This document shows, in pieces, positions 12,470 to 47,103 of a DNA stretch of 60,205 nt. Position 1 is the stretch's first letter. Each line of letters starts with the position of its first letter. A program made the position numbers and the translations under genes. Origin of the DNA: Chiloscyllium plagiosum (lineage: Eukaryota); NCBI RefSeq assembly GCF_004010195.1, contig NC_057755.1:11565868-11626072 (forward strand). Direction: 5' to 3'. The notes beneath the pieces are model-generated. The model was not told the DNA's origin, did not search any database, and saw only the letters and a list, made by a program, of their open reading frames with translations.

Positions 12470-13810
12470 CATTTAAGAAAAGTAGTAAGGAAAAGCCAGG
12501 GTGTTATAGACCCGTAATCCTGACATTGGTGTATCGGTGGTGGCCAAGCTTTTGGAGGGAATCCTGAGGAACATGATTTACATGCATTTGGAAGGGCAAA
12601 TGCTGATTAGCGATAGTCAGCATGACCTTGTGCATGGGAAATCATGTATCATGAATTTGAGTGAGTTTTTGAAGAAGTAACAAAAATTATTTATTAGGGT
12701 AGGGCAGTAGACGTGATCTATATGGACTTCAGTAAGGCGGTTGATAATGTCCCTCATGGCAGACTGATCAGCAAGGTTAGATCTCATGGAATACAGGAAG
12801 AACTAACAATTTGAATACATAACTAGGTCGAAGTTAGAGGACAGAAACATATGGTGGAGGGTTGCTTTACAGACTGGAGATCTGTGACCAGTGGTGTCCC
12901 AAAAGGATCAGTGCTGTTTCCTCTACGTTTTGTCATTTGCATAACTTATTTGGGTGTGAATATGGGAGTTAGAAATAGTAAGTTTGCAGGTGACACCAAC
13001 AGAGAAGAAACTTACTTCAGAGCAAAAAGGGATCTTGGTCAAACAGGCCAATGAGGATATGTGCGAGGTGCTTCATTTTGGAAAAGCGAATTCGAGCATG
13101 ACTTATATGCTTTATATTAAGGTCCTGGGGAATGTTGCTGAACAAACAGACCTTGGAATGTAGGTTCCTAATTTATTGAGAGGAGAGTCTTATTTAGATG
13201 GGTTAGTGAAGAAGGCATTTGGTATGCATTTCTTTATTGGTCAGAGCATTGAGTATAGGAGTTATGAGGTCATGTTGAGCTGTACAGGACATTGATTCGC
13301 CCATTTTTTGAATAAAGTGTTCAATTCTGATCTCCTTTCTATCGGAATGATGTTCTTAAACATGAAAGGCTCGGAAAAGATTTACAAGAATGTTGCCAGG
13401 GTTGGAGGATTTGAGCTGTAGGGAAACTCTAAATATGGTGTTTTCCCTGGAGGGTTGGAGGCTGCGGGATGACAGAATAGTGGTTTATAACATCATGCTG
13501 GAAATGGACGAGTTCTTTTTCTGGGGTGGGTGAGTTGAGAACTAGAGGAAATAGATTTAGGGTGGGGGAAAAATATAAAAGACATCCAAGGGGTAACTTT
13601 GTCATCAAAGGGTGATGTGTTTATGGAATGAGCTGCCAGAAGAAGTAATAGATGCTGGTAAAATTGCAGCATGTAAAAGGCATCTGGATGGATATATGGA
13701 TACAAAGGTTTTGGAGGGATATGGGTGCGGTGCTGGCAAATAGGACTGGATTATGTTGGGATATCTGGTCAGCATGGACAAGTTGGATCACAAACATCTC
13801 TATCTATGTG
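12470..13810 (+). mobile_element. CR1 LINE RT-to-3' end fragment
   Basis: VEGCFTDWRSVTSGVPKGSVL, SKFAGDT, and an HER1-like 3' UTR. Confidence 0.85.
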
Positions 13811-14149: not shown

Positions 14150-14610
14150 CTACGCCACCATTTCTCCCTTTCAAACAATCACTAAACTGTAAATAGTCCA
14201 TCGTTCGCAGCAAACTGTCCAGACTTCAGGACAACATCGACAACAACACCACACAACCCTGTCACAGCAACCTCTGTAAGTCATGTCAGATCATCGACGT
14301 TGACACTAACATTGCTCGTGGGAATACCACTCACCATGTGCACAGCAGATACTCACGTGGCTCGGCCAACATGTCTATCTCATATGCTGCAGGCAAGGAT
14401 GCCAGATTATGGTACATTGGCGAGACCATGCAGGCACTACAACAATGGATGAATGGACGGAGTACAACATTCGCCAGACAGAGATGTTCCCTCCCAAATG
14501 GACGACACTCCAGTGGTCATTTCAGCCACCGATCATCATGTAAGCGTCCTCCAAGGTGGGCTTTGAGATATACAACAATGCAGAATCACTGAGCAAAACA
14601 TGACCACTTT
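14150..14610 (+). mobile_element. Penelope-like GIY-YIG fragment (second PLE family)
   Basis: ARLWYIGETMQALQQWMNG; homologous to 45930-46550. Confidence 0.75.
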
Positions 14611-15808
14611 GGCCTGAATGCTCATCTTTTTACATATAAACAAAATAGCTTCTCAACACCCTATATATCTCTGTACCAAACAAGTCTGATCAGAGCCGAG
14701 TGTGTCTTATTACTCCTCTCAAAAGAAATAAGGACACAGTAACTTTGAGAAAAGCAACAGCTTTTGGAAAAAATAATGACCAGCTTTATTGCATCTCCCC
14801 ACTTTGGAAAATGAACCATCAATACCAAAATATGGCTTCATTTTTAACCCTTCAAAAACCCAGTTTTTAATCTAAACATACATGTACGCTATACTAACCA
14901 CAAACATGTGAAAATGCACAACCACATGCAAATTCAGTCCGCAGCACTCCTGCCAATTTCATTGCCATGACCTGCCACATGCACAATTGCCAAACTGAAT
15001 GGTTGCAACAACAACCTCTATCAAAACAATCTGACATTTTCCAACAAATGTCAATAGGTCATTATCAGTGGATACGATTGTTTTAGATGCATTGCTGGCA
15101 ACATAAACTCTGAAATGTTGTAAGGCCATCACCAACCTTAAAGACTCCCTCTCCACCGTTGAATATTTCTGTTGTTGAACATGCAGCATCCCGGAAAAAT
15201 AACCGATGAGTCCTTATCATCCACCTGCAGGAGCACTGCACCAACAACCGCATCACTGGTATTGATAACTACCTTGAAAGGCTTTGTGCAATCAGGTGTG
15301 GCTAATACTGCGGCATCGGTTAACTCAGGTTTTAGGCTGTCAAGTGCCTTTTGACGGTCTGCTGTCCACTAAAAGATCCTGACCTTTGTTAAACAATTCA
15401 TTGAGTGGCGTAGCCACACTGCTCAAGTTCAGCACAAACCTTCGATAAAATCCATTCAGAACCAGAAAACGTATTACTGGTTGTTTAGTCAATGGTGTGG
15501 GAAAATCACCAATTATTTTCATTTCTGTATCCGGTGGAGCCATTTGTCCATGTCCAAGGATATGGCCCAAGAAGGTGACTTGGACATTGGCAAATACAAT
15601 TTTAGCTATGTTTGCTATCAAGCCTGCCTTATATAGTCGATCAAAGAAGTCTGATAAATGCTGTGGATGTTCCATACATGAGTGACTAAAAATCATTAGG
15701 TCATCCATATACACCACACAGTCAGGTCATCCGGCAAAGACCTTCTTCGTCAGTCTCTGAGAAGTGACTGGCGCATTTTTCGTACCAAGTGGAATGACTT
15801 TGAACTGA

Positions 15809-15892
15809 TATAGGGTGGAGTGGTGCTGGAAAAGCACAGCAGGTCAGGCAGCATCCGAGTAGCAGGGTAATCGACATTTCAGTCAAAAGCCC
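15809..15892 (-). mobile_element. Short PLE terminal insertion in the Gypsy RT, with 9-bp TSD
   Basis: TTGAACTGA at 15800-15808 and 15893-15901; insert is the GTGGTGCTGGAAAAGCACAGCAGG terminus. Confidence 0.8.
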
Positions 15893-15982
15893 TTGAACTG
15901 AAATCGTCCATTTGGCGTTACAAAGGTCAAAATTGCTTTTGCTCTCTCAGACAGATGTACTTGCCAGTAGCCCCTCTGCAAG

Positions 15983-16288
15983 TGGGCAGCATGCCGGCTC
16001 AGTGGTTAGCATCTCTGCCTCACGGTAACAGCATCCCAGGTTCGATTCCCCCTTGAGCGACTGTCTGTGTGGAGTTTGCACATTCTTCCCTTGTTTGTGC
16101 GGGTTTCCTCCGGTTGCTCTGGTTCCCTCCTACCATCCAAAGATGTGCAGGTCAGGTGAATTGCCCGTGGTGCTCAGTGCATTACTCAGAGGGAAGTGTG
16201 TTTGGGTTGGTTACTCTTTGGAGGGTTGGTGTCGGCAGGTTGGGCCGAAGGGCCTGTTTCCGCACTATAGGGAATCTAGTCAAGTCTA
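15983..16288 (+). mobile_element. HE1-type tRNA-derived V-SINE
   Basis: A box GGCTCAGTGG, B box GGTTCGATTCC, V-domain GTGTGGAGTTTGCAC, CR1-like tail GGGCCGAAGGGCCTGTTTCC. Confidence 0.88.
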
Positions 16289-19200
16289 AATGTAAGTTGC
16301 TTGTCCCACTTTTTCGACACTGTCCTCCAACTGTGGAATTAGATATACATCAGTTTATGCAACGACGTTGAATTTGAGATAGTCCACACGTGACCGTTCG
16401 GTACTATCTGGCTTTGGCACCGTGACTGTAGGTGAGTTCTACTCACTGTAACCCACTTCCATCATGTACTGGACCATGTGCTCTATCTCCTTCTGAAATT
16501 GTGCCCCATTTAGAATGTTATGCCAATAAGGATTCTGCTTAATCTGAAAAGCATCTCCTGTCTGCACATCTTGCACAATTAGATTTGTACTTCCCAATTT
16601 ATTTTCCCATATCTCCCCATGTGATAGCAATAACTCTTTCAGGTCATTTCGATTTTCCTTTGGAAGGCAACTCAATAAATTATCTCAATTTTTGACAATC
16701 TTTCCATTATCCAGTTTAATTTGAGGATGTCTCATCCGGAATCCTCTGAACGTGTTTCTTCCTTCTGTGCAGTGATCATTAATACCTTCTCCTATTGCTT
16801 TCCTTTCCTATCAAGATACCTTTTGAGTTGATTCACCTGAAACACTCTGTGACATTTCATCCTCTCAGGAGTCCTATTCAAGTAGTTCACCTCACTCAAT
16901 TTCCTCTCGATTTCATAAGGTCCACTAAACTTTGCTTTTAACGATTCACCTGTTACTGGAAGTAACACCAGTACCTTATCCCTAATTGCAAAATTGTGAA
17001 TTTGTGATTTCCGTTTCCTCTTTCATTGCATGCTGCGATACTTTTAAATGTTGTCTAAGTAACTCTCCAGCTCTATGTAATAAGTCTCCAAAATTTGGCA
17101 CATCGTCCAAATGGATGGTATCTGGATTCTGACCTATTATTTTCTCTTTAATCAATTTTAATGGTCCTCTTACTTCATGCCCCAGCATTAATTCAAATGG
17201 ACTGAACATGTTTGATTCATTCAGTGCATCTCTGATCGCAACAAAATACAAACAGAATTCCCTTACCCCAATCATCTGCATAATTATGACAATAAGTCCT
17301 CAACATAATGTTTGATGCCATCTCTGTAGTGCTTCCTGCGAGTCTGGATAGTACGTAGTAGATTTGAATTGCTTTATTCTCAAGTTATCCATAACCTTGT
17401 CGAATGCATTGCGTGTGAAGTTTGATCCTTGATCTGACTGGATTGCTATTGTTACTCCGTATCGAGTAAAAACATTAAGTAATTCTTCTACAAACCTTTA
17501 AGCTGTGATGTTGTGTAATGGGATACCCGCTGGAAATCGAATTAACACATCCATTATTGTTATTAAATATTGTTCCCACTTTTTGTTTGAGGTAGGGGAC
17601 TTATACAATCAATCAAGACTCTTGGGAAAGGTTCCTCAAATACTGGAATAGGTATTAAAGTTATAGGTTTTATTACTGCCTCTAGTTTTCCGATTAGCTA
17701 CATGAATGATACATCTGGCAGAATTCAACTACATCTTTGTGTACTCCAGGCCAGTAAAAAAAGATCTCTCTGTTTTTTGGCCTGTGTTTTCCTCACCCAT
17801 AAATGACCTCCAGGTTCTGGCTCATGCGCCACTGGGAGCAATTTCTTTCTATAGAGGACTGCCAAAACATTTTAATGAATCTTTGCCCGTGTCTCATCTG
17901 CTTGAATGTATTAAGGTCTCAGTTTCCTCACTAAGACAAAATTGTTAAGCAATAACACTAAGGGATGCTTTCACTTTCTTTCTCTGTAAATGCCTTTGAT
18001 ATAATTATTTCACATTCTCTTTTTTCTGCTGTAATTCAATCAGCTTAGCCGAGCTAACAATGATTGCATGCTTACCTATTTGATACTGCTCTGTGCTACT
18101 TATCTGATCAAACAAGTTCTCGCATAACGCTCTGTTAGCTTCCTTATCTGTGTCGTTTGATCCGTCCTGCTTCAACCTGTGCCTCTGTGACCTTGTTATC
18201 ACACAGTCAGGGAAAATTCCTATAAAAAACACATTCTTCATGTCTTCAGTTGCCTTCGTCCACATTTTAAACGAGACTAGGAAGCATAAGCATTTGGTGA
18301 GAGATTGTCTAGTACTCCTAATACAAATTCTACACTCCTTCTCTGGACTCTCTAGCCTCACTTTACACAACTGAGGACTTTTTGTCTCACATGAATTCCT
18401 GTTACTATTACCTTTTCTAGCAATAGTCTCTGAGGAGTATTTATCTCCTCATCCTTCAGCATTATAGACTGAAAGGATCCTGTGTCCCTTAATGTTGTAA
18501 CCTTCTTACTTACTGCTCCTGGCCTATGTGAATAAACTTTACACTTGCATGTATATTTTTTAAGCAGATCTGACATTTCCTCCTTAATCAACCTCTGATT
18601 GTCGTGTGCACGCTGAGGCAGTAGTCTAATTTCCTTTGTGCTTTTTGTTACATATCCAACAGATGTTCCTACCTCTGGCTTTCTCCTTGCCCACCAACAC
18701 CGTGATTTCGAGTGGCCCGCTTTATTATAATTGAAACTTCGGAGATTTATAACTTCTTTGTCCCTTCAAGTTTCTTTTCTGTTGTGTGGTAAGTTATCCT
18801 TATGATTTTCAACGAGCTATATCTTTCCCTTTCCATGTGAGCATTTCTCTTTCCTGCAATTTATATTCTGAAATTGATTATGGAAGCCAAACAGAGTTTT
18901 ATGACCCACCGCATAATCATCAGCTACTTCAGCTGCTAAACTTGTTGTTTTAACTCTCTGCTCTTCTACATGAGTTGGCACTAATTCAAGCAGTGAATTT
19001 TTGAATTCCTCTCAGAGGATATCATAGCTCGAGTTTTAAAATTCTGAACCATCTGTTGAAAGTATTCTGTTTGATCCTTTCAAACTCAATGTAGATTTGA
19101 CCTGTGTCCCTCCTCAGATTCCTGAAACGTTGTATACAGGCTTCTGGTACAAGCTCATGTGCACTTAAAATGGCGTTTTCACCTCCTCATACTCCCCAGA

Positions 19201-19869
19201 TATCTCCTATGACAGTGATGCGAAGACCCCACTAACCCTCCCCACAAACTTCGTTTCGATCAAAAGATCCAAATTGCCACTGACCACACTCCACTTTTTT
19301 AACCCACCTTTTCAAATGAGATGAAAAAAGGCTTCCACATCCACCTCATCAAATTTAGGCAATGCTTGAAGATACTTCAACAGTTTCTCATTAGGCTTCT
19401 CACTACCGGGGGCTTGCTCCTCCTTCCTCTCTTGCTCGTTCCTACCCTCAGCCATTACCTCCAGCCTTTTAAGCTGATGCTAATTTTATGTGTCAGTTTT
19501 TGAAGTTCCAAAGCTCTCTTGTTTTATTTCTCAGCTGTCTCTTTATCCCTCTCTTCTTCTTTTCACTATAGTTCAAACTGTTCCATTTTTGCTGCCCTTT
19601 ATGTCTCGCCTCTAACTTAAGTTGCCTCAGTTGCAGTCGAATTCTTGTCATATCCATGGATTCTGATGTTTTCTCCAGCAAGTGTTTATGCTGAGCTACT
19701 GCTGTAATGATCTCTCCTTTCGTCACTGAAGCAGGCAATCACAATTGCAGCTTCTCTGCTAATTCGTGCAGCTTGGTTATATTCACCTTTTGCAAACCTT
19801 CCAAAGTCACCCCATCCACTTCCAGAAAACGTTTGGTGACTGGAAGTGCCATTACTATCCCAACCTTTG

Positions 19870-19990
19870 AAGAGAAAATGAGGTCTGCAGATGCTGGAGA
19901 TCAGAGATGGAAATGTGTTGCTGGAGAAGCGCAGCAGGTCAGGCAGCATCTAGGGAACAGGAGAATCGACGTTTCGGGCATTAGCCCTTC
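19870..19990 (-). mobile_element. PLE 3' terminus truncated inside its hammerhead core
   Basis: Reverse complement reads GAAGGGC-TAAT-GCCC-GAAACGTCGATTCTCC...CAGCATCTGCAGACCTC; the CTGANGA box is replaced by foreign DNA. Confidence 0.85.
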
Positions 19991-21675
19991 CTGCATTTGC
20001 CTTGTTAAATCTACTAGAATTTTATTAGTTTCTGTTAGATCCTCCCTCGTTCTTCTAAATCCCAGTGAATGTCCTTCTAACCAATCCTTTCTGTCAGAAT
20101 GCATCAGTCCTGCCATCACAGTAATCAGTCTGGTAAACCTTTGTTGTACAGCCTCCATAACCATAATATCCTCCCTCAGGTAAGGATTCCAGAACTGTAT
20201 ACAATACTCCAGGTGTTGTCTCACAAAGCTCCAGTCCAATTTGACAATAGAACATTACAGCGCGCGTGGCACAGGGCCTTATGGCCCTTGATCTTGCACC
20301 GACCTGTGAAACCAACCTGAAACCCATCTAACTTGCACTGTTCAATTATCACCCATATTTTGATCCAATGACCATTTAAATGCCGTTAATGTTGGCAAGT
20401 CTACTACTGTTGCAGGCAAGAAAGTATACAATTGTTGCACGCCCGTACTACCGTCTCAATAACGAAACTAACTCTGACATTTGTCCTACATCAATCACCC
20501 TCAATTTAAAGCTGTGTCCCCTCATGCTAGCCATCATCATGCGAGGAAAAAAGACTTTCACTATCCACCCTATCGAAACCTCTGACTTCCTTACACATCT
20601 CTATTAAGTCACCACTTAACCTTCTCTCTAGCGAAAACAGCCTCAAGTCCCTCAGACTTTCCTTATAAGACATTCTTTCCATACCAGGCAACATCCTAGT
20701 AAATCTCTGCACCCTTTCCAACGTTTCCAAATTCTTCTTGTATTATGGTGACCAGAACTATATGCAATACTCCAAATAATGTCGCACCAGAGTTTAATAC
20801 AATTGCCAGATGACCTCATGACTCTGAAACGTAATCCTATATCAATAAAACCTAACATACCATACCATCTTATCAAACTTCGTGGCAACGTTCAGGGATT
20901 ATATACATGGACACTGAGATCACTCAGCACTTCCAAGCATCTTACCATCTTACTCTGCATTCCTGTTTCTCCTTCCTAAGTGAATCATCTCACATTTTTC
21001 CGCATTAAACTATATTTGCTACTGATCATCCCAGTTCTGCTGCTTCTACATGGGTCTCTGTACCCTGCAACATCCAACAGCACTGCTCACAACTCCACTG
21101 ACCTTCGTGTCATCAGCAGATTTAAGAAACCGTCCTTCTATGCCGTTATCCAGGTCATTTATAAACATGGCAAATAGCAGTGGATCCAAAACAGATCCTT
21201 GCAGTACACCACTAGGATATGAACTCCAGGTTGAACATTTCCTATCAACCACCACCCTCTCTCTTCTTTCAGATAGCCAATTACTGATCCAAGCTGCTAA
21301 ACCACCCTCAATCCAAGACCTCGGTATTTCCTGCAAGAGCCTACAGTGGGGAACCTTATGAAACGCTTTACTGAAATTCGTATACACCACATCAACAGCT
21401 TTACCGTCATCCACTTGTTCGGTTACCTTCTCAAAGAAAGCAATAAGGTTTGTGAGGCACAATCTATGCTAAAAAAAAACATGCTGACTATCCCTAATCA
21501 AATTATTCTTTCTAGATGCATATACATCCTATCTCTTTTCATTCTTCTCGGCACTTTGCGCACAACCAAATAAGGCTCAGTGATCTATAATTCCCCATAA
21601 TCTATTTTCCCCTTTTTTGAACAAGAGGACAATATTTGATACCTATAGTTTTCTGCCCGCCACTGTAGCCAAATT
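19986..21675 (-). repeat. Left arm of a near-identical inverted duplication (CR1-derived DNA) of 23914-25294
   Basis: Matching ORF translations on opposite strands (20094-20327 vs 24953-25186; 20380-20607 vs 24673-24900); only two point differences seen by eye. Confidence 0.92.
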
Positions 21676-21745
21676 TAACCTTTGTCTACCCAAACACGCC
21701 AACAACCGACATAAAGACATTAGCACATGCCACTCGCTGTTTAAA

Positions 21746-21764
21746 ATCCCGTGACGAGCCCCCA
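21746..21764 (-). promoter_or_regulatory. tRNA-Pro primer-binding site of the Gmr1-like element
   Basis: Minus strand TGGGGGCTCGTCACGGGAT versus canonical TGGGGGCTCGTCCGGGAT (1-nt insertion), 3 nt after the LTR-terminal CA. Confidence 0.85.
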
Positions 21765-22759
21765 GTCTGTTATGGACTAGGTCGGACCACTCAAAACATT
21801 CCTAAGGAGGCCGCCAAGTCCATAACATTACAATTTGTTTCGGTAAGTGTACAGAGAAAATTAGCCACAGTGAGTTAGCGATGTTGACTACAAGTTTCTA
21901 AAACAAACAAGAATTTATTCACAAAATTATGCAATGAAACACAAAGAACAGAATAACGAACTCTTACAGAACTCAGTCCATCCAAACCAGAATTAATTAG
22001 CTGCTCTGGATACACACAACTGTCCCAATAAGCAAACCTCTCTGAAAAACAGTACAAATGGAACATATGCTTATAAGTTGAAGTCAAAAGGTCTGAAGAA
22101 GGGAGAGAGAGAGAGAGTTTGTTTCCACACAGCTTATCATGCTAGTCCAGACATGTAGTTTGTCTCCAGCACCACCTTTTTTTTTGCATGAATCCTTCTG
22201 CCTCAGTTAATCGGGTATTAGGTCATCTCTTCACTTGCCATTCAGCTGTTGACAATTTACTGTCACGGTCTGATATTTGTGATTACGCAGATGGAGTTAT
22301 TATTCAGCCTGAGTATAGTCCGCTCACACGATTAGTATGATGTTTCAATCTCTCTGCCAATAAATTCTGTGCCTGTGCGCTTCTCCTCACTTCACCTGAC
22401 GACGGATCAACCTGAAACCTAAAACCCTGGTGCCGTGTGACTTCTGAGGTTGTAAAATCCACCCTCACAAAGAACAGCTTTTATCCAGCCAGTCTGAGTT
22501 TCGGGTCCGGGCTCAGTTTGGGGGTTGCACTGTGCGAAACATCATTGGTTACAATACTGCAAAAGGGCCGTGTTCTTTTTTTTGTCTTCAGTTTTGCCAA
22601 ATTGGCCGATCTGCTTTTGGCAAAAGGAAAACCTGTTGGGAATTCTTGAATTAATGGACCAGTGGTGTCACTGTCGCGAGCATGGCACACGTACTGAAAG
22701 CAAAGCTTCGTGTTTCGGGATGTTTAGCAACAAAATCCGGCTTTAAATGAATTCTGAAT

Positions 22760-25520
22760 TTGGATTATTGCAGAGTTTCAGACATCACGGGAAGCGGGGA
22801 CAAAAAGGGATTGGAGACAGCGCTGAACATATTGATGGGAATGGGACTGTGTATGAGGAATTTCAGCAATGGCGGTAGGTTAGAAAGTTTTGACAGTTAT
22901 CAATGTAGAACAGAAGGCTGAAAGCTGGTCTGATTGAAGCTTTCCAAGTCATGAGGGGTCTAAACAGTGGACATGAGGGAAAGGATGGAGAGGTATTATT
23001 CAGAGATGTAAGGTCATTAAGTAAATAAATAAGTGAGATGAGTAAGGTCGTTTTCACACAGGGAGTGGCGCGTGTCTGTAAATCACAGTCTCATTGTGAC
23101 AGAACGGCAGCTTCAATCGAATTATTGAAAAAACAACAATTAGACGGTTATGTTAAAAGTAACAATGTGCAGAGTTACAGGGAGAAGGCAAGAGAATAAC
23201 ACTAGAAGAGACACGCATTTCCTCACTGTAAAGAGCCAGCTATGATGGTGAAACAGTTGATAAATGGTATATAAAACACATACGATTTTATTAAGTGTTT
23301 TCATCGAGTTAAGTCTATGTCAATTCTTTTTTTTCTTTTGATTATATTTTAACTGTGGTGTAAGAATAAAACATGATTTACATTAATCTGCACAAATGTT
23401 TGGGAGGAAAACGGAGCTGGTCTATTTTTAGTTTACAAACGACACAAATTTCAATGGAGTTGCGGACAGTAAGGAGAATTGTCAGAGGATACAGCAGGAC
23501 TTCGTTCGTTTGGAGGTATGGGCAGAAAATTGCAACGGAGGTTAACGCAGGCAATTGTGACTATATGTGTTTTGGAAGGGCAAGTACTAGTGGAACTGAT
23601 ACAGTGAATGGCAGAACCCTTCGGAGTATAGAGATCTCGATGTGATTTCCACAGATCTCTGAAGAGAGTAGCACAGGTAGATATCATTTTCTTTTTTAAA
23701 AAAAACAAGGCCTATGGCATGCTTGCCTTCACTTACAGGGGCATTGAAGATTAGGATGGATATGTCAAGCTGCAGTTTTATAGAACTTTAATTATGCAAC
23801 ACTTGGAATATTGCATACTGTTCTGGTCACCAGAGGATTTGGTTGTTTCAGAGAGGTTACAGAAAAGACTTACCAGGATGTTGCCTGGAATGGGGCAGGT
23901 TAGCTGTGAATACAATTTGGCTACAGTGGCGGGCAGAAAACTATAGGTATCAAATATTGTCCTCTTGTTCAAAAAATGGGAAAATAGATTATGGGGAATT
24001 ATAGATCACTGAGCCTTATTTGGTTGTGCGCAAAGTGCCGAGAAGAATGAAAAGAGATAGGATGTATATGCATCTAGAAAGAATAATTTGATTAGGGATA
24101 GTCAGCATGTTTTTTTTTAGCATAGATCGTGCCTCACAAACCTTATTGCTTTCTTTGAGAAGGTAACCGAACAAGTGGATGACGGTAAAGCTGTTGATGT
24201 GGTGTATACGAATTTCAGTAAAGCGTTTCATAAGGTTCCCNNNNNNNNNNNNNNNNNNNNNNNNNNNNNNNNNNNNNNNNNNNNNNNNNNNNNNNNNNNN
24301 NNNNNNNNNNNNNNNNNNNNNNNNNNNNNNNNNNNNNNNNNNNNNNNNNNNNNNNNNNNNNNNNNNNNNNNNNNNNNNNNNNNNNNNNNNNNNNNNNNNN
24401 NNNNNNNNNNNNNNNNNNNNNNNNNNNNNNNNNNNNNNNNNNNNNNNNNNNNNNNNNNNNNNNNNNNNNNNNNNNNNNNNNNNNNNNNNNNNNNNNNNNN
24501 NNNNNNNNNNNNNNNNNNNNNNNNNNNNNNNNNNNNNNNNNNNNNNNNNNNNNNNNNNNNNNNNNNNNNNNNNNNNNNNNNNNNNNNNNNNNNNNNNNNN
24601 NNNNNNNNNNNNNNNNNNNNNNNNNNNNNNNNNNNNNNNNNNNNNNNNNNNNNNNNAAGGTTAAGTGGTGACTTAATAGAGATGTGTAAGGAAGTCAGAG
24701 GTTTCGATAGGGTGGATAGTGAAAGTCTTTTTTCCTCGCATGATGATGGCTAGCATGAGGGGACACAGCTTTAAATTGAGGGTGATTGATGTAGGACAAA
24801 TGTCAGAGTTAGTTTCGTTATTGAGACGGTAGTACGGGCGTGCAACAATTGTATACTTTCTTGCCTGCAACAGTAGTAGACTTGCCAACATTAACGGCAT
24901 TTAAATGGTCATTGGATCAAAATATGGGTGATAATTGAACAGTGCAAGTTAGATGGGTTTCAGGTTGGTTTCACAGGTCGGTGCAAGATCAAGGGCCATA
25001 AGGCCCTGTGCCACGCGCGCTGTAATGTTCTATTGTCAAATTGGACTGGAGCTTTGTGAGACAACACCTGGAGTATTGTATACAGTTCTGGAATCCTTAC
25101 CTGAGGGAGGATATTATGGTTATGGAGGCTGTACAACAAAGGTTTACCAGACTGATTACTGTGATGGCAGGACTGATGCATTCTGACAGAAAGGATTGGT
25201 TAGAAGGACATTCACTGGGATTTAGAAGAACGAGGGAGGATCTAACAGAAACTAATAAAATTCTAGTAGATTTAACAAGGCAAATGCAGGAAGGATGTCC
25301 TCAAAGAACAGAGAGTCGAGAACCAGAGTGTCAGAAATTAAGGTGGTCCATTTCAGACTGAAAGGAGGAAAATTTATTTCAGAGAGTGGGGACCCTGTGA
25401 AATTCATTGGCGCAGAAAGCAATTAAAGCCAAAGCATTGAATGTTTCCAAGAAAAGAAATATACGATTCTGAGGGCTAATGGGATCAAAGAGTATACATC
25501 TGAAGTGGGAACACAGTACT
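22760..25520 (+). mobile_element. Tandem/nested CR1 3' fragments; contains the right arm (23914-25294) of the inverted duplication
   Basis: HLEYCI(L/Q)FW and AVDVVYTNFSKAF motifs; CR1 3' tail ends ~25033 and an older CR1 continues to ~25520. Confidence 0.8.
24241..24656. other. Assembly gap (416 N)
   Basis: Run of N. Confidence 1.
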
Positions 25521-29560: not shown

Positions 29561-30944
29561 GATGAGGGGTGAAGCTGCACTCAGCCAGACAAATGGGACA
29601 GATATAGCAAAGCGTTGGATGCAAATTAATTGTCAAACTAAACTGTCCCCATCATCACTCCGATGCAGGGGCAGTAGGAGTTTCCATATAGAATAAAGCC
29701 TAGCCTGCAACATCCCTTTTCAAATATCCAGGCCATGTTCAGCACGATAGCAGATATTCACTAAATCACCGACAGCACTGTCCCCATCAACCACTGAAGG
29801 GCAGGTACTGCACGGGATTACACACAGAGTAATGGTCCCATTTCAGGAGCACTTTTCAAATTTCCAGGCGACAATCAGCATATTGTTTAAATCAGGTCCA
29901 ATTTATCGTCATTAAACTTCAAAGGATAGGTACTGTACAGGATATGATACAAATTAAATCACCATTTAAACTGCCCTCTCTCAAACATTTCCAGGGCAAG
30001 TTAATCACAACATTGCATACAGATTAACATTCAGTCTACCCTGTCCTCATCAAATGCTGAAGGACAGTTGTAACATGAGGGTTACGTAAAGAATAAATCT
30101 CATTCGGCCCTGCCCCCATCAAATACTCCTAGGACAGGGACCCATGATGATGGATACAGAATAAACCTCTCTCAAACCTATCCCCATCAAACCATCTCAG
30201 GACAGCTTTAGGACGGGGTTAGAAACAAATTAAAGCCGCATTTGTACTGTTCTCTGCCAAGATTCCCAGGTTGCAGATGGTATAATTTAGATACAGAGTA
30301 AATCTCATCTTTCAACACAAAAATTAAATTTCAAGTAAACTTCCTTCTTGACTGTGCCCCATCAAACACTCCAGAACTGGTACAGCGAGGGTTTAAATAC
30401 TGTGCAAAGTCTCTCTGCACTAGCCCCTTTTAAATTCCCAGGCCATATTCAACATGGGGTTAGACATTCATTAAATTATGGCACACACCATCTCCATCAA
30501 ACATTCCCAGGAAAGGTACAGCACAGTTAGATACAGAAGAAATCTCCCTCTACTCTTTTAAGGTGAATATTGCACTCTGCACCCTCCGCCCCCCTTCCCC
30601 CATTAAACACTCACACAGTAGAGACAGCAAGGTGTCAGGCACAGTGTGGTGCGCTCTCTATTTTTATGAACTGAAAGTAAAATTAAAATAAAGTTCTGTC
30701 TATGTTGGCTCCATCAAAAATAAAACCCAGCATAGGAACATGGTAGGGTTAGATACAAAGTAAAAGCTCGCACTATTCTCTTAAGCAGAAAGAAATGCCT
30801 CTCTACAATATCTTCAGCTAATTCGACCATGATTGGTGTATCACTTTGTTAGATACAGAGTAACGACCACTATGCACTGTGCCCATCAGCCACTCCCAGG
30901 AGAGCTACGGAACAGCATAAAGATCACTCGTTTTTAAAACAATA

Positions 30945-31110
30945 AACTGAAAAATCAAAACATCAGAATAAAAATTGGTATTGTGAGAAAATCTCATCAG
31001 GTCTGGCAACATTTGTGGAGTAAAAACAGAGTAAACGTTTCAGGTCCAGTGACCCTTCTTCAGACAGTTAACTCAGTTTTCTCTCTATCCGTGCTGAAAG
31101 ATCTCTCTCG
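30945..31110 (-). mobile_element. PLE terminus with hammerhead core (31034-31063) inserted in the array
   Basis: Reverse complement reads CTGAAGA-A-GGGTC-ACTG-GACCT-GAAACGTT. Confidence 0.7.
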
Positions 31111-31717
31111 TCTGACCCCATCCTACACTCCAGAACAGGTACCACAGCAGGTTACATGCAGACTAAAGTTCGTTCTGCACTGGCCCTTGTTGAATACACA
31201 GGCCAGGTGAAGCATGGAATTCTATATTGGTTAATTCGTCGCTACACTAACCCCAACAAACTCTCCTAGGACAGATACAGAATGAGGTTAGATATGAAAT
31301 AGTCATCATCAGATGCAACCATTTGTCAAATACACAAGCCATGATCAACATGGTAGATATTGATTAAATCAGACCCAACACTGTTTTCATCGAACAATCT
31401 CTGGAAAGCCACAGTACAGTGTTATATAAAAACCCTGCACTGCCCCTGTCAAACACCGAATAACAGTACAACATGGGGTTAGATGCAGAGTTAAACTGCA
31501 CTGTTCCCTGCAATCACTTCTGGACAGGTACAACAGGGGGTTAGAACACCCCTTACATGAATCGTTTGAAATATCCAGACCATGTTCAGCTTCGAGCCTT
31601 TTAAATTGAAAGTAAACAATCTCTACTCATTTAATCTGAAATTAAAACTGTTTTTACACTAGTAAAGAGAGAATAAAGTTCTGTTGACAGAGTCCCTTAT
31701 CAAATGATTCATGGACA

Positions 31718-31953
31718 TTGTTGTGGTTCTGTTCGCCGAGCTGGGAATTTGTGTTGCAGACGTTTCGTCCCCTGTCTAGGTGACATCCTCAGTGCTTGGG
31801 AGCCTCCTGTGAAGCGCTTCTGTGATCTTTCTTCCGGAGGAAAGATCACAGAAGCGCTTCACAGGAGGCTCCCAAGCACTGAGGATGTCACCTAGACAGG
31901 GGACAAAACGTCTGCAACACAAATTCCCAGCTCGGCGAACAGAACCACAACAA
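31718..31953. repeat. 236-bp zero-spacer palindrome of two inverted hammerhead-bearing PLE termini (insert 31719-31990, 12-bp TSD)
   Basis: 118-bp arms centred on 31835/31836 with 2 mismatches; ATTCATGGACAT at 31707-31718 and 31991-32002. Confidence 0.95.
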
Positions 31954-34509
31954 CGAGCATCTGAGCTACAGATCTTTTCACAAACATTGAATTCATGGAC
32001 ATATGCAGCACAAAGTTCGATACAAATTAAAACTCGCGAGGACAGGTAAGATACACGTTTGGACACAGACTAAATGTTTATTTATACTATTGTCCGTCAG
32101 ATACTCTCGAGACAATTACAGTATGGGGTTTGAGTCAGAGTGAAATCCTTATCAAGTTTCCATATTCAACATGGGATTATACATTCATCAAATCATTCCA
32201 CAACTCCATCTGCGTCAACTGCTGAAGGAGAAGTATAGCACAGGGTTAGATGCAAATTAATGCATCCGTCTATACAGTCCCCATCAAATAATGGCACGAA
32301 AGATTCATCAAGGGACTCGATATAAATTGAAGTTTATCTGCACTGGCCACAACAATCATTTTCAGGACAACAACTAGAGGGGCTTAGCATCAAACTGAAA
32401 TTCCACCTGCACTGATTCTCCTCAAATATACACTTTTTTGAGCAGACATTGAACATTGAATAAAATACCCCTCAGGCACTCCCAGTGCAGGGACAGCAAA
32501 AGGTTAGATACACAGTACAGCTTCACCTACACTGTCTCAATCCAGGACTGAAAGATATATGCAGCATAGAGTTAGACACAGAATAAAGCTCGCTCAGACT
32601 GTGTCTTTTTCGAATTCCCAGGCTGCGTTCAGCATTCATTTAGGTGTTGATTAAATCAGCAGCCAAAACTTCCCCAATAAAATCACCTCAAACAGGTATA
32701 GCTTTGAGTTATAAACAAGGTAAAGCTCTTCCTATACAATACAGGCACTTTACAAATTCCCAGACCGTGGGGTTAGATAATCATTAAAACCCGCCACTCC
32801 CACACCCCAAAACACAATAACCCATTGTCTCCATCAAACAGTCCCAGGACAATTACAGCACAGAGTTACAGACAGACTAAATCTCCCTCTTATCTGTGCT
32901 CCACCAGAATGTCTTAGGTACAGATGGGGTTAGGTGTGCAGTCGATCGCACACAGTGTTTGTGTTCCCTGTCCGTGTTGTCAATTCAGTTAAGTATTGAT
33001 TATATTTCTGCCCCAGACTGCTCCAATCAAACTATCACAGGAAACGTCTAGCCTGTGGTTAGTTGCAAATTAAATCTACATCTAAACACACTTCCACCAA
33101 CACCCCAGGGCAAGGATAGCACAGCGTTAGATACAGAATAAAGAACACTGCACTGGAACCATCAAACACTCCCAGGCCCTGTATATCGTGGGTTTAGATA
33201 CAAAATGACTCTTCATCTCTTCTGTCCACATAAAACACACACTCTAAGGACAAGGTTAAAAGGCAGACGACAAGAGGTTATAGCCCAACAGACTTATTTG
33301 AAATTACAGATGTTTATCAGTTGATCTCCATTTCGTTCTGAAAGCTTCTGATTTCAAATAAACCTGTTGAAATATAACTTGTTGTTGTGTGACTTCTGAC
33401 ATTATTCTTCCCAGTCCAAAACCGGCACCACAGTATCGTCAATCATACGACAGGCACTGAATATTGTTAGAGACATGTTAAATTTTCCTCTGCACTGAAC
33501 CCATGAAACAATCCCAAGACAGGTGCAACACAGTATTAGAAACAAAATAAAACTAACTGTGTACTGTCCCCATCAAATACACCTAGGCAGTTACAGAGCA
33601 GGTTTAGATACAGAATAAACTTCCCACTGCACTGTCCTGATCAAATAGGCAGGATAGGATTTGATGTTGACTTAATCACACCCCACACTGTCCAATCAAA
33701 CTCTCCTAGGACACATCCTGTGCAGGTTATTTACAAATTATAATTTAATTTTCACTGCCCTCCATCAAACACTCCAGGAGTATTAGATACAGTACATTTT
33801 AGAGGTCAGTTGATACTGTACCCAGCAAATCTCCTAGTACAGCGTAACGTACTGTAACTGTCCCAATCAAAATCTTCAGAACACATATCACACGCGGTTA
33901 GTTCGACAGGAAAGCTCCACGTGCAACATTTTATCAACTATACAGGCCATGTTCAGCACAGTGTTACTTATTTATTAAATCACCTTGTTTTTCTGTTTTA
34001 AACAAAAGTGCACAAAAAACTCTTTATACTGAAAATGAAACTGCCATTTTCTCTTAAATGTAAAGTAAAGCTCATTCATCACTGTACCATCAAAGCATCT
34101 CAGAACAGGTACAGCACAGGTTAGAGACAAAATTAAGCTACCACTCAAGGGTATTCAATCAAACTCTCCCAGTGCAGGGACAGCAGAATTATAGGTCCAT
34201 AATAATCATTCTGCCCTCTCCCCATAAACACTGAGCAATGGGGACAGCACAGCTTTCGTTATGAATAAAAGTTCCATCTAGTCTCTCCGATGGAATCAAT
34301 CTCCAGTCAGGGACAGCACGGGGTTAGATAGAGTGTAATTCTCCCACTATGCTGTCAAAGAACAAACGAAGAACAGACAGTTCAGCACAGGAACAGGCCG
34401 TGCAGCCACAAAGATCGCCCTAACGTTTGATGCCTTTCTAAATTAAAATTATTTTACCATGACACAATCCCTAACTCTATACTCAATCTATTCATGTATC
34501 TGTCACGAT

Positions 34510-35734: not shown

Positions 35735-38575
35735 TTGGATATAGTGGTTCTGGAATATTGTTCCTCCCCAGACATTGAATACCTTACAGTAAAATGCCGT
35801 CCTTACCAACTACCGTTAAAGTTTACCTCCACCATCCTGAGAGCAGTTTACATACCAACCCATGTGCATGTGAAGAATGCCTTAGACATTATTCACGCCA
35901 CCACAAACACTCCCCGAGATTCTATTCATCATTGTTGATTACTTCAACCAGACTAACCTCGAGGACGATACCAAAATACCTCCTGCATATCTGTTGCTGC
36001 ATCCGATGATCAAACATTCTGGACCAGTGCAACACAGCTATCAAAATGTCTACGGCTTCATTGCCCGCCCACACTTTGGAAATGTTGAGCTGGTGAGCTG
36101 CGCTCCACCTCCCAATTTACAAACATAAACTGAAATGTGAAGATTCTTCACAAAAGGCAGTACGATGCTGGTCTGAGTCTGTGGAAGACCGTCTCCAGGA
36201 CTGTTTGAATTCGGTGGACTATCCGTGTTCAAGTACTCAGTAACGAATCAGGACGAGTATGGCACCACCGTTATGGCTTTCCTTAGCAAATTCCTGGAGG
36301 ACAGTGTACCAAAGAAGACAATCTGAGTGTTCCCCAACCGTAACCTAGAATGAACGAGGAAATCTTTTCCTCACTGAAGACCAGACGGCAGCATTCAAGT
36401 CAGATGACGCAGATCAATACAAGATATCCAGGTATTAACTCTGCAAAGCCTTCAGAGAAGCCAAGTGGCAGGACTGCACCAAGTTACTAACCCAAACTAC
36501 CCATGCAACACCAGTCACCTGTGTCAAGGCGTAAACAACGTAACATGATATAAAATGCTTCAGAGCAAAATAGCAAACAAACACACATCGACCCGCTGTG
36601 CTGAGTGCTTTCTATATTCTGTTTGAGCAGAATTCCAGCTGTACGGTGACACACGCCCATCAGCCCTGATCAATTTGACACCACTGCAGATGTCAGTTCG
36701 TTCTTCCTGGGAGTCAGCCCAAGGAGATGGGCCCAGATGGTGCTCTCAGCCAACACTCAGATCCTGTGTGGATCGACTGGAGGAGAAGTTCACCGACATC
36801 ATCAACCTCTACCTCCAATGAGCTGAAATCCAATGAGCTAAAAAAAAACACTACCATCACCGTAAGTAAGAAAGCGCAAGCAACGTACCATAATCAATAT
36901 AATCCAGCAAATTTGACCTCCATGGTCATAAGTGCTTCTAGAGGCTGGTGATGGCCCACCTCAAGTCTTGCCTCCCAGCATTCTTCAATCCCTTACAATA
37001 TGCCTAACGTTGTAACAGGCCTACAGTTAATGTCACATCCTGAGGCCAGCATTCATCCCTGGATCACCTGGGCAACAATGACGCCTTCGTCAGAGTCATG
37101 TTCATCGATTACAGGTCTGCCTTCAACACCATTATCCCCTCCAGACTGATCTCAAAAGTCCGTATCCTTGGCCTACGCTCTACGCTCTGCAACCTGATCC
37201 TCACATTTCTAACCCACAGACCACAATCAGTGAAGCTAGACAAATGCACTTCCTTCACAATAGCACTAAACATTGGACCCTCTCAAGAATGTGTTCTCAG
37301 CCCCCACTGTACTTACTGAGCATCCAGAACTGTGTTGCCAAATTCCGAACAAACGCCGTCTACAAGATTGCTGATGACACCGTACAGTACGATGGATATG
37401 AAACAATGACAAATCAGAGTAGAGAACGGCAATGCAGGTTTGGTAAGGTGATGCAATGATAAGAATCTCTCTATCCATATCAGCAAAGCTAAGAAACTGA
37501 TCATTGACTTCAGAAAGAAAGGAGGAAAACATGCCCTCATCAACATCAGCAGAACTGGGGTTACGAGGGTGAAGAGTATCAAGTTCCTCGAAGTGACAAT
37601 AACCAACAAACTGTCCTGGACCTGCCACGCAGATGCAACGGTCAAGAGGGCACAACAATGGCTCTTCTTCCTAAGATTGTTCAACGAATTTAGTGTGTCC
37701 ACAAAGACCCTCTCCAAATTTTACAGATGTACGAATAGAAAGCTACTGTCTGGGTGTACAACGGTCTGATTAGATTTAGATTAGATTACTTTACAGTGTG
37801 GAAACAGGCCCTTCGGCCCAACAAGTCCACACCGACCCGCCGAAGCGCAACCCACCCAGACCCATTCCCCGACATTTACCCCTGCACCTAACACTACGGG
37901 CAATTTAGCATGGCCAATTCACCTGACCTGCACATTTTTGGACTGTGGGAGGAAACCGGAATACCCGAAGGAAACCCACGCAGACAAGGGGAGAATGTGC
38001 AAACTCCAGACAGTCAGTCACCTGAGGCAGGAATTGAACCCGGGTCTCTGGCGCTGTGAGGCAGCAGTGCTAACCACTGTGCCACCGTGCCGCCCACCAT
38101 ATCTGCCTGATATGGCAACTGCTCTGCCCAGAATTGTAAGAAACTACAGAACGTGGTCTGCACCACCAAGACCATAACAGAAGCCAACCTCCCATCCATA
38201 GGCTCCATTTACATGGCTCGTTGCCACGGAATGGCTGCCGAAATCATCAAATACCCACTGCGACAAGGTAATGCTCTCCTACAACCTCTTCATTCAGGCA
38301 TAAGATACAGAAGCCTGAACAAATGCACCAGTAGATGCAGGAACAGATTTTTCCTGGCCACTATTAGACTGATGAATGGACTGTCTGAATCAAATAATGC
38401 TGACTTTATTAATGTTGATCTTCCTCGCAAAATCTCTCTGCGATATAACTTGTATGCCTCTGCCCAATATTTTCCACCCTATGATTTGCAAGTCCTTCAT
38501 TACTATAATCTGCCTGCACTGCTTGTAAACAGGCTTTTCACTGTACTGAGGTACACGTGACAAAAAAATCAAATT
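35735..38575 (+). mobile_element. Rex1/Babar-type LINE remnant
   Basis: EYLTVKCRPYQLP...AVYIP; FIDYRSAFNTIIPSRLISK; KIADDTV; FFLRLF; 3' end CTTTTCACTGTAC...GTGACAA. Confidence 0.8.
37768..38095 (-). mobile_element. Full-length young HE1 SINE inserted in the Rex1-like LINE
   Basis: Reverse complement runs from GGGCGGCACGGTGGCACAGTGG through GGGTTCAATTCC to an (AATCT)n tail. Confidence 0.93.
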
Positions 38576-39990: not shown

Positions 39991-40080
39991 AAAGCATCCC
40001 GTGGATTATTAGCAGCGATTAAACTGCACCTGATGGGGTCCACTCCCTTCTCAGTTACAGAAACACAAACAACACAATAT

Positions 40081-40141
40081 TGAACCCGGGTCTCTGGCGC
40101 TGTGAGGCAGCAGTGCTAACCACTGTGCCACCGTGCCGCCC
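40081..40141 (-). mobile_element. HE1 SINE tRNA-derived head only
   Basis: Matches 38035-38095. Confidence 0.85.
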
Positions 40142-40311
40142 ATAAATAAAGATTAAAACATTGGTAGATTTATGTTCTGTGCCTCAGTCGCATTCATGTA
40201 TTTCATTGAGACCGAGTAAATGTTCCCCTTAATTGTGATATGAAAAGCAATGTCAGGAAGGGGTTAACTGAACCTGTTTGTTCGGTGACTCTAATGTTAG
40301 TCTCCACTAAT

Positions 40312-42600: not shown

Positions 42601-43327
42601 CAGCTGATGAACCTTAATTCCTGTGATTGTACAAACCGACTCTAATCCTCCTCTTAGCTAATCTTAGTGTTGTTAGAAACATGGTTAGCTGGTTGTTTTG
42701 TACTTTGGAGATGACATGATGAACGGAAGGGCCTTTGTCTGCATGACTTTATGACTCTATAACATTCTCTTAACAACTGAAATCACTTGTGAACATTCGG
42801 ACGTCAGTTAACTAAAAAAGATAAGATCCCGAGGGAAGAGATTCCGTTGCAGAAGGAGACACTGTTTAGAAGTGGTTTCAGATAACTGAAAGGGCGAATA
42901 TGTTTTCCCTGCTTTTGCAGTTCTTCACGACAGAAGATTGACCACTACTCAGACTCAAAGTCCAACCTCTTTGCCTTCAAGGAACCGCGATAAAATCCTT
43001 CAGGACAGCAAATTCTTCACCTTCCGTATTAAGGACGGTAACGACATGACCTGCATCTGCTATTGAGTGACTGAGTGTGTGGGAATTTTCGAGAAACCAT
43101 CTGGTTCTAATGGATGTGTGCTTATGTGTTTGCAGAGGGACGGTTTCTTGCATTTTGCGTCATATTTTTGTCATTAATTATGAATTTATCATTTGTCATT
43201 TCAGCTCAATGAATCTCAAAGTTTGAAAATCTCAAGAGATGCTCAATAAAACTGATAATGTTGCCTCCAGGCATAATTTGTTTAAAGTTAAAAATCAGCA
43301 TAAAATGTTTGTTTTTCTTCTCCACAG

Positions 43328-44235
43328 TTAATGTAGTGACGATCTTCGTCCTGCTTTATAAAGATTGTGGATTGTCTCTATGTGTCAGTCGTTACCTGGT
43401 GGCTATGGCAGTGGCGGATTTACTGGTCACTATCCTCGACCTGATATTGAGACACATTCGCAGTGTATATTGGGAACAGTTCTATTTCCTGAAGTACATC
43501 CCCGTGTGTAATATCCACGCCGTCCTGCTTTATGTAGCCACTGACTGTTCTGTCTGGTTTACCGTCACTTTCACCTTTGATCGATTTGTGGCTATTTGTT
43601 GCCAAAAGCTGAAAAGTAAATACTGCTGTGAGAAAATAGCAGCTGTGGTACTGGGAACAGTGACTGTGCTCAGCTGTTTAAAGAACATCTTCTGGTATTT
43701 TATGCTTTCAGGTCAGTATTTACTTGGTAATAACCCCTGGTTTTGTCACATAACAAACGATGTTCTATTATCTCATGTCTGGGCCACAATTGAGTTCCTC
43801 CACCACATTCTCAACCCAGCTCTCCCATTTCTCCTGATTCTACTGCTAAATATTTTCACAGTCAGACACATTTTACTGACTAGCAGAGCCCGCATGAGAC
43901 TCCAGACATACACCAATGGTAACTGTCAGTGCGACACAGAAATGCAACATCGAAAAAAATCCATCACTTTACTGTTCGTGGTCTCGGCCAATTTCATCCT
44001 GTTATGGTCAACGTTTATGGTATTTTCCATTTGTTCCCGGTTGAGGTATATTGGGTTTGAGTCTATTTCTCTAGATTACTTTGTGCGCGAATTAGGGTAC
44101 ATGCTGCAGCTCCTCAGCTGCTGCACAAACACTGCAATTTATGCTGTCACTCAGACTAAGTTCAGACAGCAGCTGAAGAAAGTGCTGAAATATCCCTTAA
44201 CCCACGTTTACTATTCCATCAAATTTATTCATTAA
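43328..44235 (+). CDS. Exon 2 of the GPR139/GPR142-like orphan GPCR (rest of TM1 to TM7); spliced protein 362 aa
   Basis: Acceptor TTTTCTTCTCCACAG|TT is phase-compatible with exon 1 and gives GVPVN; TM2 YLVAMAVADLL; TM3 Cys and TFDRFVAIC; ECL2 Cys; TM6 NFILLW; TM7 CCTNTAIY; no internal stops. Confidence 0.93.
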
Positions 44236-46603: not shown

Positions 46604-47103
46604 NNNNNNNNNNNNNNNNNNNNNNNNNNNNNNNNNNNNNNNNNNNNNNNNNNNNNNNNNNNNNNNNNNNNNNNNNNNNNNNNNNNNNNNNNNNNNNNNN
46701 NNNNNNNNNNNNNNNNNNNNNNNNNNNNNNNNNNNNNNNNNNNNNNNNNNNNNNNNNNNNNNNNNNNNNNNNNNNNNNNNNNNNNNNNNNNNNNNNNNNN
46801 NNNNNNNNNNNNNNNNNNNNNNNNNNNNNNNNNNNNNNNNNNNNNNNNNNNNNNNNNNNNNNNNNNNNNNNNNNNNNNNNNNNNNNNNNNNNNNNNNNNN
46901 NNNNNNNNNNNNNNNNNNNNNNNNNNNNNNNNNNNNNNNNNNNNNNNNNNNNNNNNNNNNNNNNNNNNNNNNNNNNNNNNNNNNNNNNNNNNNNNNNNNN
47001 NNNNNNNNNNNNNNNNNNNNNNNNNNNNNNNNNNNNNNNNNNNNNNNNNNNNNNNNNNNNNNNNNNNNNNNNNNNNNNNNNNNNNNNNNNNNNNNNNNNN
47101 NNN
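46604..47103. other. Assembly gap (500 N)
   Basis: Run of N. Confidence 1.

What the first reader, a model, noticed from the sequence alone, without database searches (positions are those of the whole stretch)
19862..25294. Penelope 3' end fused by microhomology to a 1.7-kb inverted copy of neighbouring DNA, inside one TSD
Seen: the block 19870-21676 is flanked by an 8-bp direct repeat AACCTTTG (19862-19869 and 21677-21684), and removing it restores the short Gypsy leader between the PBS (21746) and the gag ATG (19852). The block is ~116 nt of PLE 3' end, broken inside the hammerhead, joined to a near-identical inverted copy of 23914-25294. The junction GAAGG (19986-19990, minus) occurs both in the PLE core (CTGAAGAAGGGC in the 57660 copy) and in the donor (CAGGAAGG, ending 25294). 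The copied segment spans a CR1 tail plus part of an older CR1 that continues only at the right-hand locus, so it is a locus copy and the right arm is the donor. Inference: PLE target-primed reverse transcription switched template onto local DNA or a local transcript about 2-5 kb away, so PLE integration itself could generate kilobase inverted duplications next to an expanding gene cluster.
Basis: partly seen in the sequence, partly recalled or inferred. Interest (0 to 1): 0.75.

Follow-up and report, generated by a model that had tools for sequence, protein, structure and literature searches.

The report
Penelope insertion carrying inverted neighbour copy
A short jumping-gene fragment landed in a shark-like genome and, apparently while its landing site was being sealed, a 1.7-kb stretch of DNA from 2-4 kb away was copied in backwards beside it; this kind of accident is known for human LINE-1 elements, where such local copies are mostly far shorter.

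Summary
The structure is as described. An 8-bp direct repeat encloses 121 nt of a Penelope-like (PLE) 3' end, a 1,690-nt inverted copy of 23914-25294, and one untemplated base.

Public contigs from 4 samples support it. They bridge the right junction in 3 of 4 runs, and arm depth is 1.3-1.9 times flank depth, which fits two copies rather than a family. The PLE-to-copy junction is not bridged in the listed pieces.

One integration event is likely (about 0.8). The donor lies inverted on the side of the second target end. That matches fold-back inverted duplications at LINE-1 insertions (PMC11702581 Fig. S9C; PMC10191854).

The published LINE-1 copies I read are mostly under 250 bp and close to the site. 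PLE capture of host DNA is published (PMC3846280), but not as a local inverted copy in my searches. Unchecked notes of this scan report three shorter local captures at PLEs on other DNA of this genome. No gene was copied, and the window shows no gene cluster.

The parts
19862..19869 (+). Left copy of the 8-bp target-site duplication (side primed on the PLE 3' end)
19870..19990 (-). 3' end of a hammerhead-bearing Penelope-like terminal repeat, 121 nt including the 5 shared bases; 75-84% identical to 6 other copies in the window
   Evidence: family contigs go loose before 19872 (37 contigs in X14) and behind 19990 (40-52 contigs per run)
19968..19990 (-). Remainder of the minimal hammerhead: stem II hairpin, GAAA and presumptive GUC site; the first 5 nt of the CUGANGA core are missing
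   Evidence: motif read against PMC4209133 passages; no Rfam hammerhead hit
19986..19990 (-). Junction J1: 5-nt microhomology GAAGG shared by PLE and donor end (8 nt if the source was the inverted-pair form seen in contigs)
   Evidence: loose ends behind 19993 in 13 contigs of X1 and 7 of X2
19986..21675 (-). 1,690-nt inverted copy of the donor (three decayed CR1-type LINE pieces; the CR1 label is recalled, Pfam gives RVT_1 at 21049-21468)
   Evidence: contig depth 1.3-1.9 times flank
21676..21676 (+). Junction J2: one base matching neither donor nor left target copy; no microhomology
   Evidence: bridged by contigs in X13, X14, X2
21677..21684 (+). Right copy of the target-site duplication (second, reciprocal target end)
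21746..21764 (-). PBS-like motif of the host LTR retrotransposon (tRNA-Pro identity recalled, not tested)
19850..19852 (-). Putative gag start codon of the host LTR retrotransposon
   Evidence: roughly collinear with L007; direct alignment failed
15343..19852 (-). Decayed body of the host LTR retrotransposon, many stops and frameshifts; integrase (17303-17497) upstream of RT (15343-15726), the Gmr1-like order (name recalled)
   Evidence: the rve hit is below Pfam's cut-off
23914..25294 (+). Donor locus (right arm), with a 416-N gap at 24241-24656
23394..23947 (+). Old LINE piece running across the donor's left edge (right limit approximate)
   Evidence: blastn 23394-23919 vs 52690-52150, 59.6%; tblastx 23854-23928 vs 13366-13440
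25032..25495 (+). Old LINE piece running across the donor's right edge
   Evidence: translations and tblastx (25032-25190 and 25355-25495); continuity across 25294 itself read by eye from frame-shifting ORF2 motifs

Best explanation
One PLE integration event made the whole block. (1) The PLE endonuclease cut both strands 8 nt apart (inferred from the TSD). (2) The plus-strand end primed reverse transcription of about 120-135 nt of PLE RNA, through the uncut hammerhead (the sequence is shown; the RNA step is inferred). (3) The other, minus-strand end primed synthesis on minus-strand sequence of its own flank at 23914, 2.2 kb away. The template was either resected single-stranded DNA folding back or a nascent transcript. 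Synthesis ran 1,690 nt away from the cut (inferred). (4) That strand was displaced and annealed to the cDNA end through GAAGG/CCTTC, trimming the cDNA inside the hammerhead core; fill-in gave TSD, PLE, inverted copy, TSD. It is a passive accident with no sign of function. A single event: about 0.8. This particular route: 0.45.
For: TSD edges meet two independently set ends: the family's 3' terminus (loose ends before 19872) and the copy's end; chance about 0.002. Three other PLE insertions in the window carry TSDs of 9, 12 and 16 bp, and two of them have an inverted second arm. The donor is on the second-end side and inverted, the one layout of four that fold-back predicts, as in PMC11702581 Fig. 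S9C caption and PMC10191854 section 11. A purified PLE protein cuts and extends both strands, starts on RNA without homology to the cut DNA, and uses uncleaved RNA (PMC11167929). Family contigs share about 9 nt beyond the break and then diverge (consensus agreement 0.52-0.55), so the cDNA may have been a near-complete stub. Both loci look real: J2 bridged in 3 of 4 runs; one X1 contig ends exactly at 21675 and one leaves the reference exactly at 19986 with 139 foreign letters; arm-to-flank depth 1.85, 1.84, 1.51, 1.32.
Against: J2 has no microhomology, whereas two LINE-1 fold-back cases had 14 and 6 bp. The DNA route needs about 3.9 kb of exposed strand, and no RNA data were obtained. J1 and the left TSD are not bridged in the 32 listed of 94,839 pieces. 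Contig depth is, by the tool's own warning, no copy number, and in X14 arm and flank depths overlap. No empty allele was seen. It is a single case, and side-plus-orientation has a 1-in-4 chance under the rival.
Confidence: 0.45

Rival explanations
1. One reading: the cDNA 3' end (CCTTC) left the PLE RNA at the foot of hammerhead stem II, paired with GAAGG on plus-strand donor RNA or DNA, ran 1,690 nt to 23914, added one base and was end-joined to the second target end.
For: The 5-nt match sits exactly where a switch needs it, and J2 is blunt plus one base, as after run-off. LINE sense and PLE sense point the same way in the insert. Precedents: co-inserted local pre-mRNA (PMC10191854) and an SDSA-like cDNA switch (10.1101/2024.08.27.596794). 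The 15.8-kb copy breaks at nearly the same motif.
Against: It does not predict the donor's side. Resection at the second end would remove the plus strand it needs as DNA template. No plus-strand transcript is shown, and 23914 is no known RNA end.
Confidence: 0.35
2. Two steps: an ordinary PLE stub with its TSD came first; a later break at its 5' edge was repaired with a locally templated inverted copy (replication-slippage type), independent of PLE proteins.
For: Inverted duplications with 1-15 bp microhomology are the commonest inversion class in humans (277 events, median 284 bp; PMC12350158 passages). PLE ends are very abundant here. The relative ages of PLE piece and copy could not be measured.
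Against: The later break would have to fall within roughly 10-15 nt of the stub's 5' end and spare the TSD to within one base.
Confidence: 0.1
3. Assembly artefact: the left arm, or its joint to the PLE, is mis-assembled around the N gap.
For: N gap inside the right arm; 100% identity over 638 nt may come from gap-filling with shared reads; J1 unbridged in the listed pieces.
Against: J2 is bridged in three samples from two studies, depth is raised along both ends and the middle of the arm, and a mis-join would not create a TSD at both edges. One of the samples could be the assembly's own source; that is not known.
Confidence: 0.07
4. The PLE-LINE composite is a dispersed multi-copy element and the nearby donor is a coincidence or its source locus.
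For: An unchecked note (e1-7858329) reports such a family elsewhere in this genome. PLE-framed host DNA is mobile in rotifers (PMC3846280).
Against: Contigs over the composite's own internal joints have only 1.3-1.9 times flank depth. The donor has no PLE at 25295. No look-alike in the scan's index.
Confidence: 0.03

Closest known systems
LINE-1 insertions with fold-back inverted duplication of DNA 5' of the target (PMC11702581 Fig. S9C caption, supplement part 3 read; PMC10191854 section 11 read)
   Same: Truncated retroelement 3' end plus an inverted copy of flank DNA from the second-end side, inside a TSD, donor left intact.
   Different: Here a PLE, germline and shared by several individuals. 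The copy is 1,690 nt from 2.2-3.9 kb away, against 52-220 bp in 4 colon insertions and about 0.1 kb in the S9C case (size read from figure text, ambiguous). A 916-bp event in S9A is an inversion, not a duplication. No self-annealing homology here.
LINE-1 templated insertions (10.1101/2024.08.27.596794, passages read; its supplements not seen)
   Same: Local genomic template copied into a retroelement during integration; 22 instances in a set of 3,598 insertions.
   Different: Those templates are typically under 250 bp and within 15 bp of the site.
LINE-1 co-insertion of local pre-mRNA and two-template insertions (PMC10191854; PMC11702581 section 7; PMC13174262 passages)
   Same: One TSD around two templates joined by microhomology; switch or twin-priming models.
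   Different: An RNA template is not shown here, and no host gene is known over the donor.
PLE capture of host DNA in the rotifer Adineta vaga (PMC3846280, parts 1-4 of 5 read)
   Same: PLE termini and an 8-bp TSD around non-PLE DNA of kilobase size; inverted 5' segments are usual.
   Different: There the cargo lies between two terminal repeats or as a spacer inside mobile copies, and no local source is described. Here there is one broken terminus and a one-off inverted copy of the neighbourhood.
Ordinary PLE insertions with an inverted 5'-truncated arm (PMC8557442 passages; window copies at 31.7 and 57.6 kb)
   Same: TSD, 3' end, turn near the hammerhead, inverted second arm.
   Different: The second arm is host DNA instead of PLE sequence.

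Membership tests
Endonuclease-positive Penelope-like element insertion | Target-site duplication | tested here: met
   8 bp, chance about 0.002; 9, 12, 16 bp at three other window copies. No empty site seen.
Endonuclease-positive Penelope-like element insertion | Terminal repeat with minimal hammerhead motif | tested here: met
   Partial motif here; full CTGANGA-stem II-GAAA in 5 of the 6 other aligned copies; stem II folds. Rfam gave no hammerhead hit.
Endonuclease-positive Penelope-like element insertion | Link of this terminus to a PLE RT plus GIY-YIG ORF | tested here: inconclusive
   No ORF in the fragment; candidate ORF pieces at 14197-14589 and 45854-46324 gave no Pfam hit. The PLE assignment rests on motif, TSD and layout.
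Endonuclease-positive Penelope-like element insertion | Insertion begins at the family 3' terminus | tested here: met
   37 contigs of X14 go loose before 19872, 2 nt from the TSD (this row is listed for one run only); alignment.
Fold-back inverted duplication at a TPRT site (LINE-1 type) | Copy from the second-end side, inverted, donor intact, inside the TSD | tested here: met
Fold-back inverted duplication at a TPRT site (LINE-1 type) | Self-annealing homology at the priming end | tested here: not met
   0 nt plus one extra base at J2
Fold-back inverted duplication at a TPRT site (LINE-1 type) | LINE-1 hallmarks (poly-A tail, L1 sequence) | tested here: not met
   No poly-A tail; the element is PLE-type. 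It works like these events but is not a member.
RT template-switch chimera | Second template is an RNA transcribed on the matching strand | not tested
PLE-mobilised host cargo (Adineta type) | Cargo framed by two terminal repeats or present as dispersed copies | tested here: not met
   One terminus only; depth fits about two copies
LINE 3' transduction | Insert ends in the LINE's own tail and carries downstream flank only | tested here: not met
   The copy includes flank on both sides of the younger LINE and ends in a PLE terminus

The most novel reading that the evidence does not exclude
PLE integration in this shark lineage routinely uses the second target end, or the stalled cDNA, to copy neighbouring sequence, up to kilobases long and kilobases away. 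With very many PLE landings this would be a steady germline source of local inverted duplications, able to copy exons or regulatory DNA and to seed invertible segments. The side and orientation of the donors would then reveal the unresolved second-strand step of PLE transposition.
Probability: 0.35. Interest if true: 0.62.

Novelty: new variant of a known kind. Interest (0 to 1): 0.4.

Why it matters
How PLEs finish integration and build their inverted ends is stated to be unresolved (PMC8557442 passages, PMC11167929). An insertion whose second arm is host DNA marks the template, because source, side and strand can be read off. A genome-wide count of such events would separate fold-back, twin-priming and template-switch models. 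It also shows that a PLE landing can leave two near-identical 1.7-kb inverted repeats around 2.2 kb, a substrate for later inversion. This single case copied only dead repeats, so its direct biological effect is probably nil.

Tried and rejected
Whole-genome searches: no genome is held, so the scan for other copies and other events could not be run.

Empty site: no joint skipping the block among the 15 of 101 joints listed. At 21708 the only counted depth in X1, X2 and X14 equals that of the J2-crossing contig; X13 has a second contig there. Contigs show presence, not absence.

Ageing the event: table 3 lists no differences inside the PLE piece but seems uninformative at that depth. Arm identity may be inflated by gap-filling. 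Differences at 21659, 20782, 20890 and 20899 cannot be assigned to arm or allele.

Relatives of the LTR element: the RT query found nothing; the integrase query gave 53 loci at 29-59%, too distant for a nucleotide empty-site test; gag N-terminus BLASTP gave no hit. No second LTR was found in the window.

Rfam and ARAGORN gave nothing relevant. A scan at 93% identity or more found no second local capture beside a PLE in the window. Gene cluster: rejected for this window.

Literature: eight searches showed no PLE case of a local inverted kilobase copy. The library lacks most subscription papers, most hits were seen as listings only, and unseen supplements of the tumour preprint (10.1101/2024.08.27.596794) may hold longer LINE-1 cases.
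Full report
Observation. AACCTTTG stands at 19862-19869 and 21677-21684, enclosing 1,807 nt. These are 121 nt of a hammerhead-bearing terminal repeat on the minus strand (19870-19990), a 1,690-nt inverted copy (19986-21675) overlapping it by 5 nt, and one extra base (21676). The comparable parts match the right arm at 638 of 638 and 325 of 327; 725 nt face a 416-N gap. A direct repeat of 8 or more with edges within 3 nt arose in 45 of 20,000 random pairs. A junction match of 5 or more has probability 0.005-0.006.

The target. The block sits in a decayed LTR retrotransposon with integrase upstream of RT (the name Gmr1 is recalled). Four of 16 checked relatives (of 53 fetched) carry the same PBS-like motif 2,639-3,045 nt before the integrase match. 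The window gives 2,452 without the block and 4,267 with it, so the block is a later insertion in the leader. The gag start is only roughly collinear and failed direct alignment.

The donor. Both ends of the copied segment cut through old LINE pieces that continue only at the right locus: 23394-23919 aligns across 23913/23914, and ORF2-like motifs continue past 25294 (the latter partly by eye). There is no PLE at the donor's end. The right arm is therefore the source. The copy is a slice of the locus, not a LINE retrocopy or transduction.

Is it real? No genome was available. I laid contigs of four samples from two studies on 18900-23913. The right junction is bridged by 31 or more letters on both sides in X13, X14 and X2. 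In X1 the crossing contig has only 29 letters in the arm, and another ends exactly at 21675. An X1 contig fits from exactly 19986 and has 139 other letters before it; these are not shown, and I infer they are the donor's flank (expected depth 25.1, seen 26). Median arm-to-flank depth is 1.85, 1.84, 1.51 and 1.32, and all arm pieces exceed all flank pieces in 3 of 4 runs. The tool warns that depth is no copy number, and only 32 of 94,839 pieces are listed. This fits two copies and argues against a single copy or a large family. The PLE-to-copy junction and the left TSD are not bridged in what was listed. No empty allele appeared among 15 of 101 listed joints. One sample may be the assembly's own source.

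PLE context. Three other insertions in the window have TSDs: 9 bp (15.8 kb), 12 bp (31.7 kb) and 16 bp (57.6 kb). The latter two have inverted second arms, and the first breaks at nearly the same hammerhead position. In each run 40-52 family contigs continue past 19990 with TTCAGGAAT and then disagree. In X1 and X2, 13 and 7 contigs match to 19993 and turn into an inverted arm. The foot of the hammerhead is thus a common turning or ending zone, which earlier notes of the scan also report (unchecked). The fragment reads through the presumptive cut site, so ribozyme cleavage did not set the break. This agrees with uncleaved RNA being the main substrate in vitro (PMC11167929, parts 1-2 of 4 read).

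Mechanism. A single event is likely (about 0.8), because a later event would have to hit a window of some 10-15 nt and spare the TSD. Two routes give the same product. In the second-end route the minus-strand target end primes at 23914 on minus-strand template and copies away from the cut; its product anneals to the cDNA through GAAGG. This explains side and orientation and mirrors how the family builds inverted arms. It also matches the LINE-1 case in PMC11702581 Fig. S9C. Against it, there is no homology at the priming point, though this RT class starts without homology in vitro. This explains both junctions but not the side, and it needs a transcript or strand not shown. I give 0.45 and 0.35; later repair 0.10, mis-assembly 0.07, dispersed composite 0.03.

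Comparison. It works like LINE-1 local templated and fold-back insertions: 52-220 bp in 4 colon insertions plus one pre-mRNA co-insertion (PMC10191854); 22 cases typically under 250 bp and within 15 bp (10.1101/2024.08.27.596794); six cases in cultured cells (PMC11702581). It is not a member of that class, since the element differs and self-annealing homology is absent. PLE capture of 0.9-1.5 kb host spacers, and of a gene inside an 8-bp TSD, is published for a rotifer (PMC3846280), between terminal repeats and without a local source. PMC2912911, PMC4209133, PMC8557442, PMC12350158 and PMC13174262 were seen as passages, and 10.64898/2026.07.22.740005 as part 1 of 5. Eight searches found no PLE case like this one, within a library that lacks most subscription papers. 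Unchecked notes on other pieces of this genome describe local captures at PLEs from 0.7-1.3 kb away, two of them 85 and 143 bp long.

Verdict. Real in all likelihood, and a new variant of a known kind: unusually long and distant, in a different element class, but one case, with no gene copied and no cluster in view. Interest 0.4. If a genome-wide scan shows the process to be routine with a fixed geometry, 0.62 (probability 0.35).

Noticed in passing
window 31707-32002: Near-perfect 236-bp palindrome (98%) of a second hammerhead-bearing PLE family inside a 12-bp TSD, with a one-sided extension of about 35 nt.
   Followed up: partly
window 57549-57766: PLE 3' end plus a short inverted arm inside a 16-bp TSD; the turn lies just upstream of the hammerhead core.
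   Followed up: partly
window 15800-15901: 84-nt PLE stub in the RT region of the same LTR retrotransposon, 9-bp TSD, broken at AAGGG within 1 nt of the focal break.
   Followed up: partly
window 45797-45916: 120-bp hairpin (86%) in a region similar to 14150-14493; possibly the inverted junction of a longer PLE, beside the second N gap (46604-47103).
   Followed up: no
window 43213-44235: Open 340-codon 7TM receptor frame (Pfam 7tm_1, E 4e-16); resembles GPR139-like receptors of cartilaginous fishes (recalled); no paralogue in the window.
   Followed up: partly
window 38033-38096 and 40079-40142: 64 bp identical in direct orientation 2 kb apart, and 98% to 55830-55892; looks like a SINE piece (label recalled), so it may be a young family end rather than a local copy.
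   Followed up: partly
window about 29600-34400: Decayed tandem array of short units with a recurring CCCATCAAACACTCCCAGGACAGG-like motif (70-84% between units).
   Followed up: no
window 21752 and 22528: Contigs show a 1-nt shorter PBS-like motif in X13 and X14, and an 8-nt insertion behind 22528 in all four runs, relative to the assembly.
   Followed up: no
window 21676-23913: The 2,238-nt spacer between the near-identical arms holds the LTR and PBS of the host element and could invert by recombination; its orientation in individuals was not tested.
   Followed up: no
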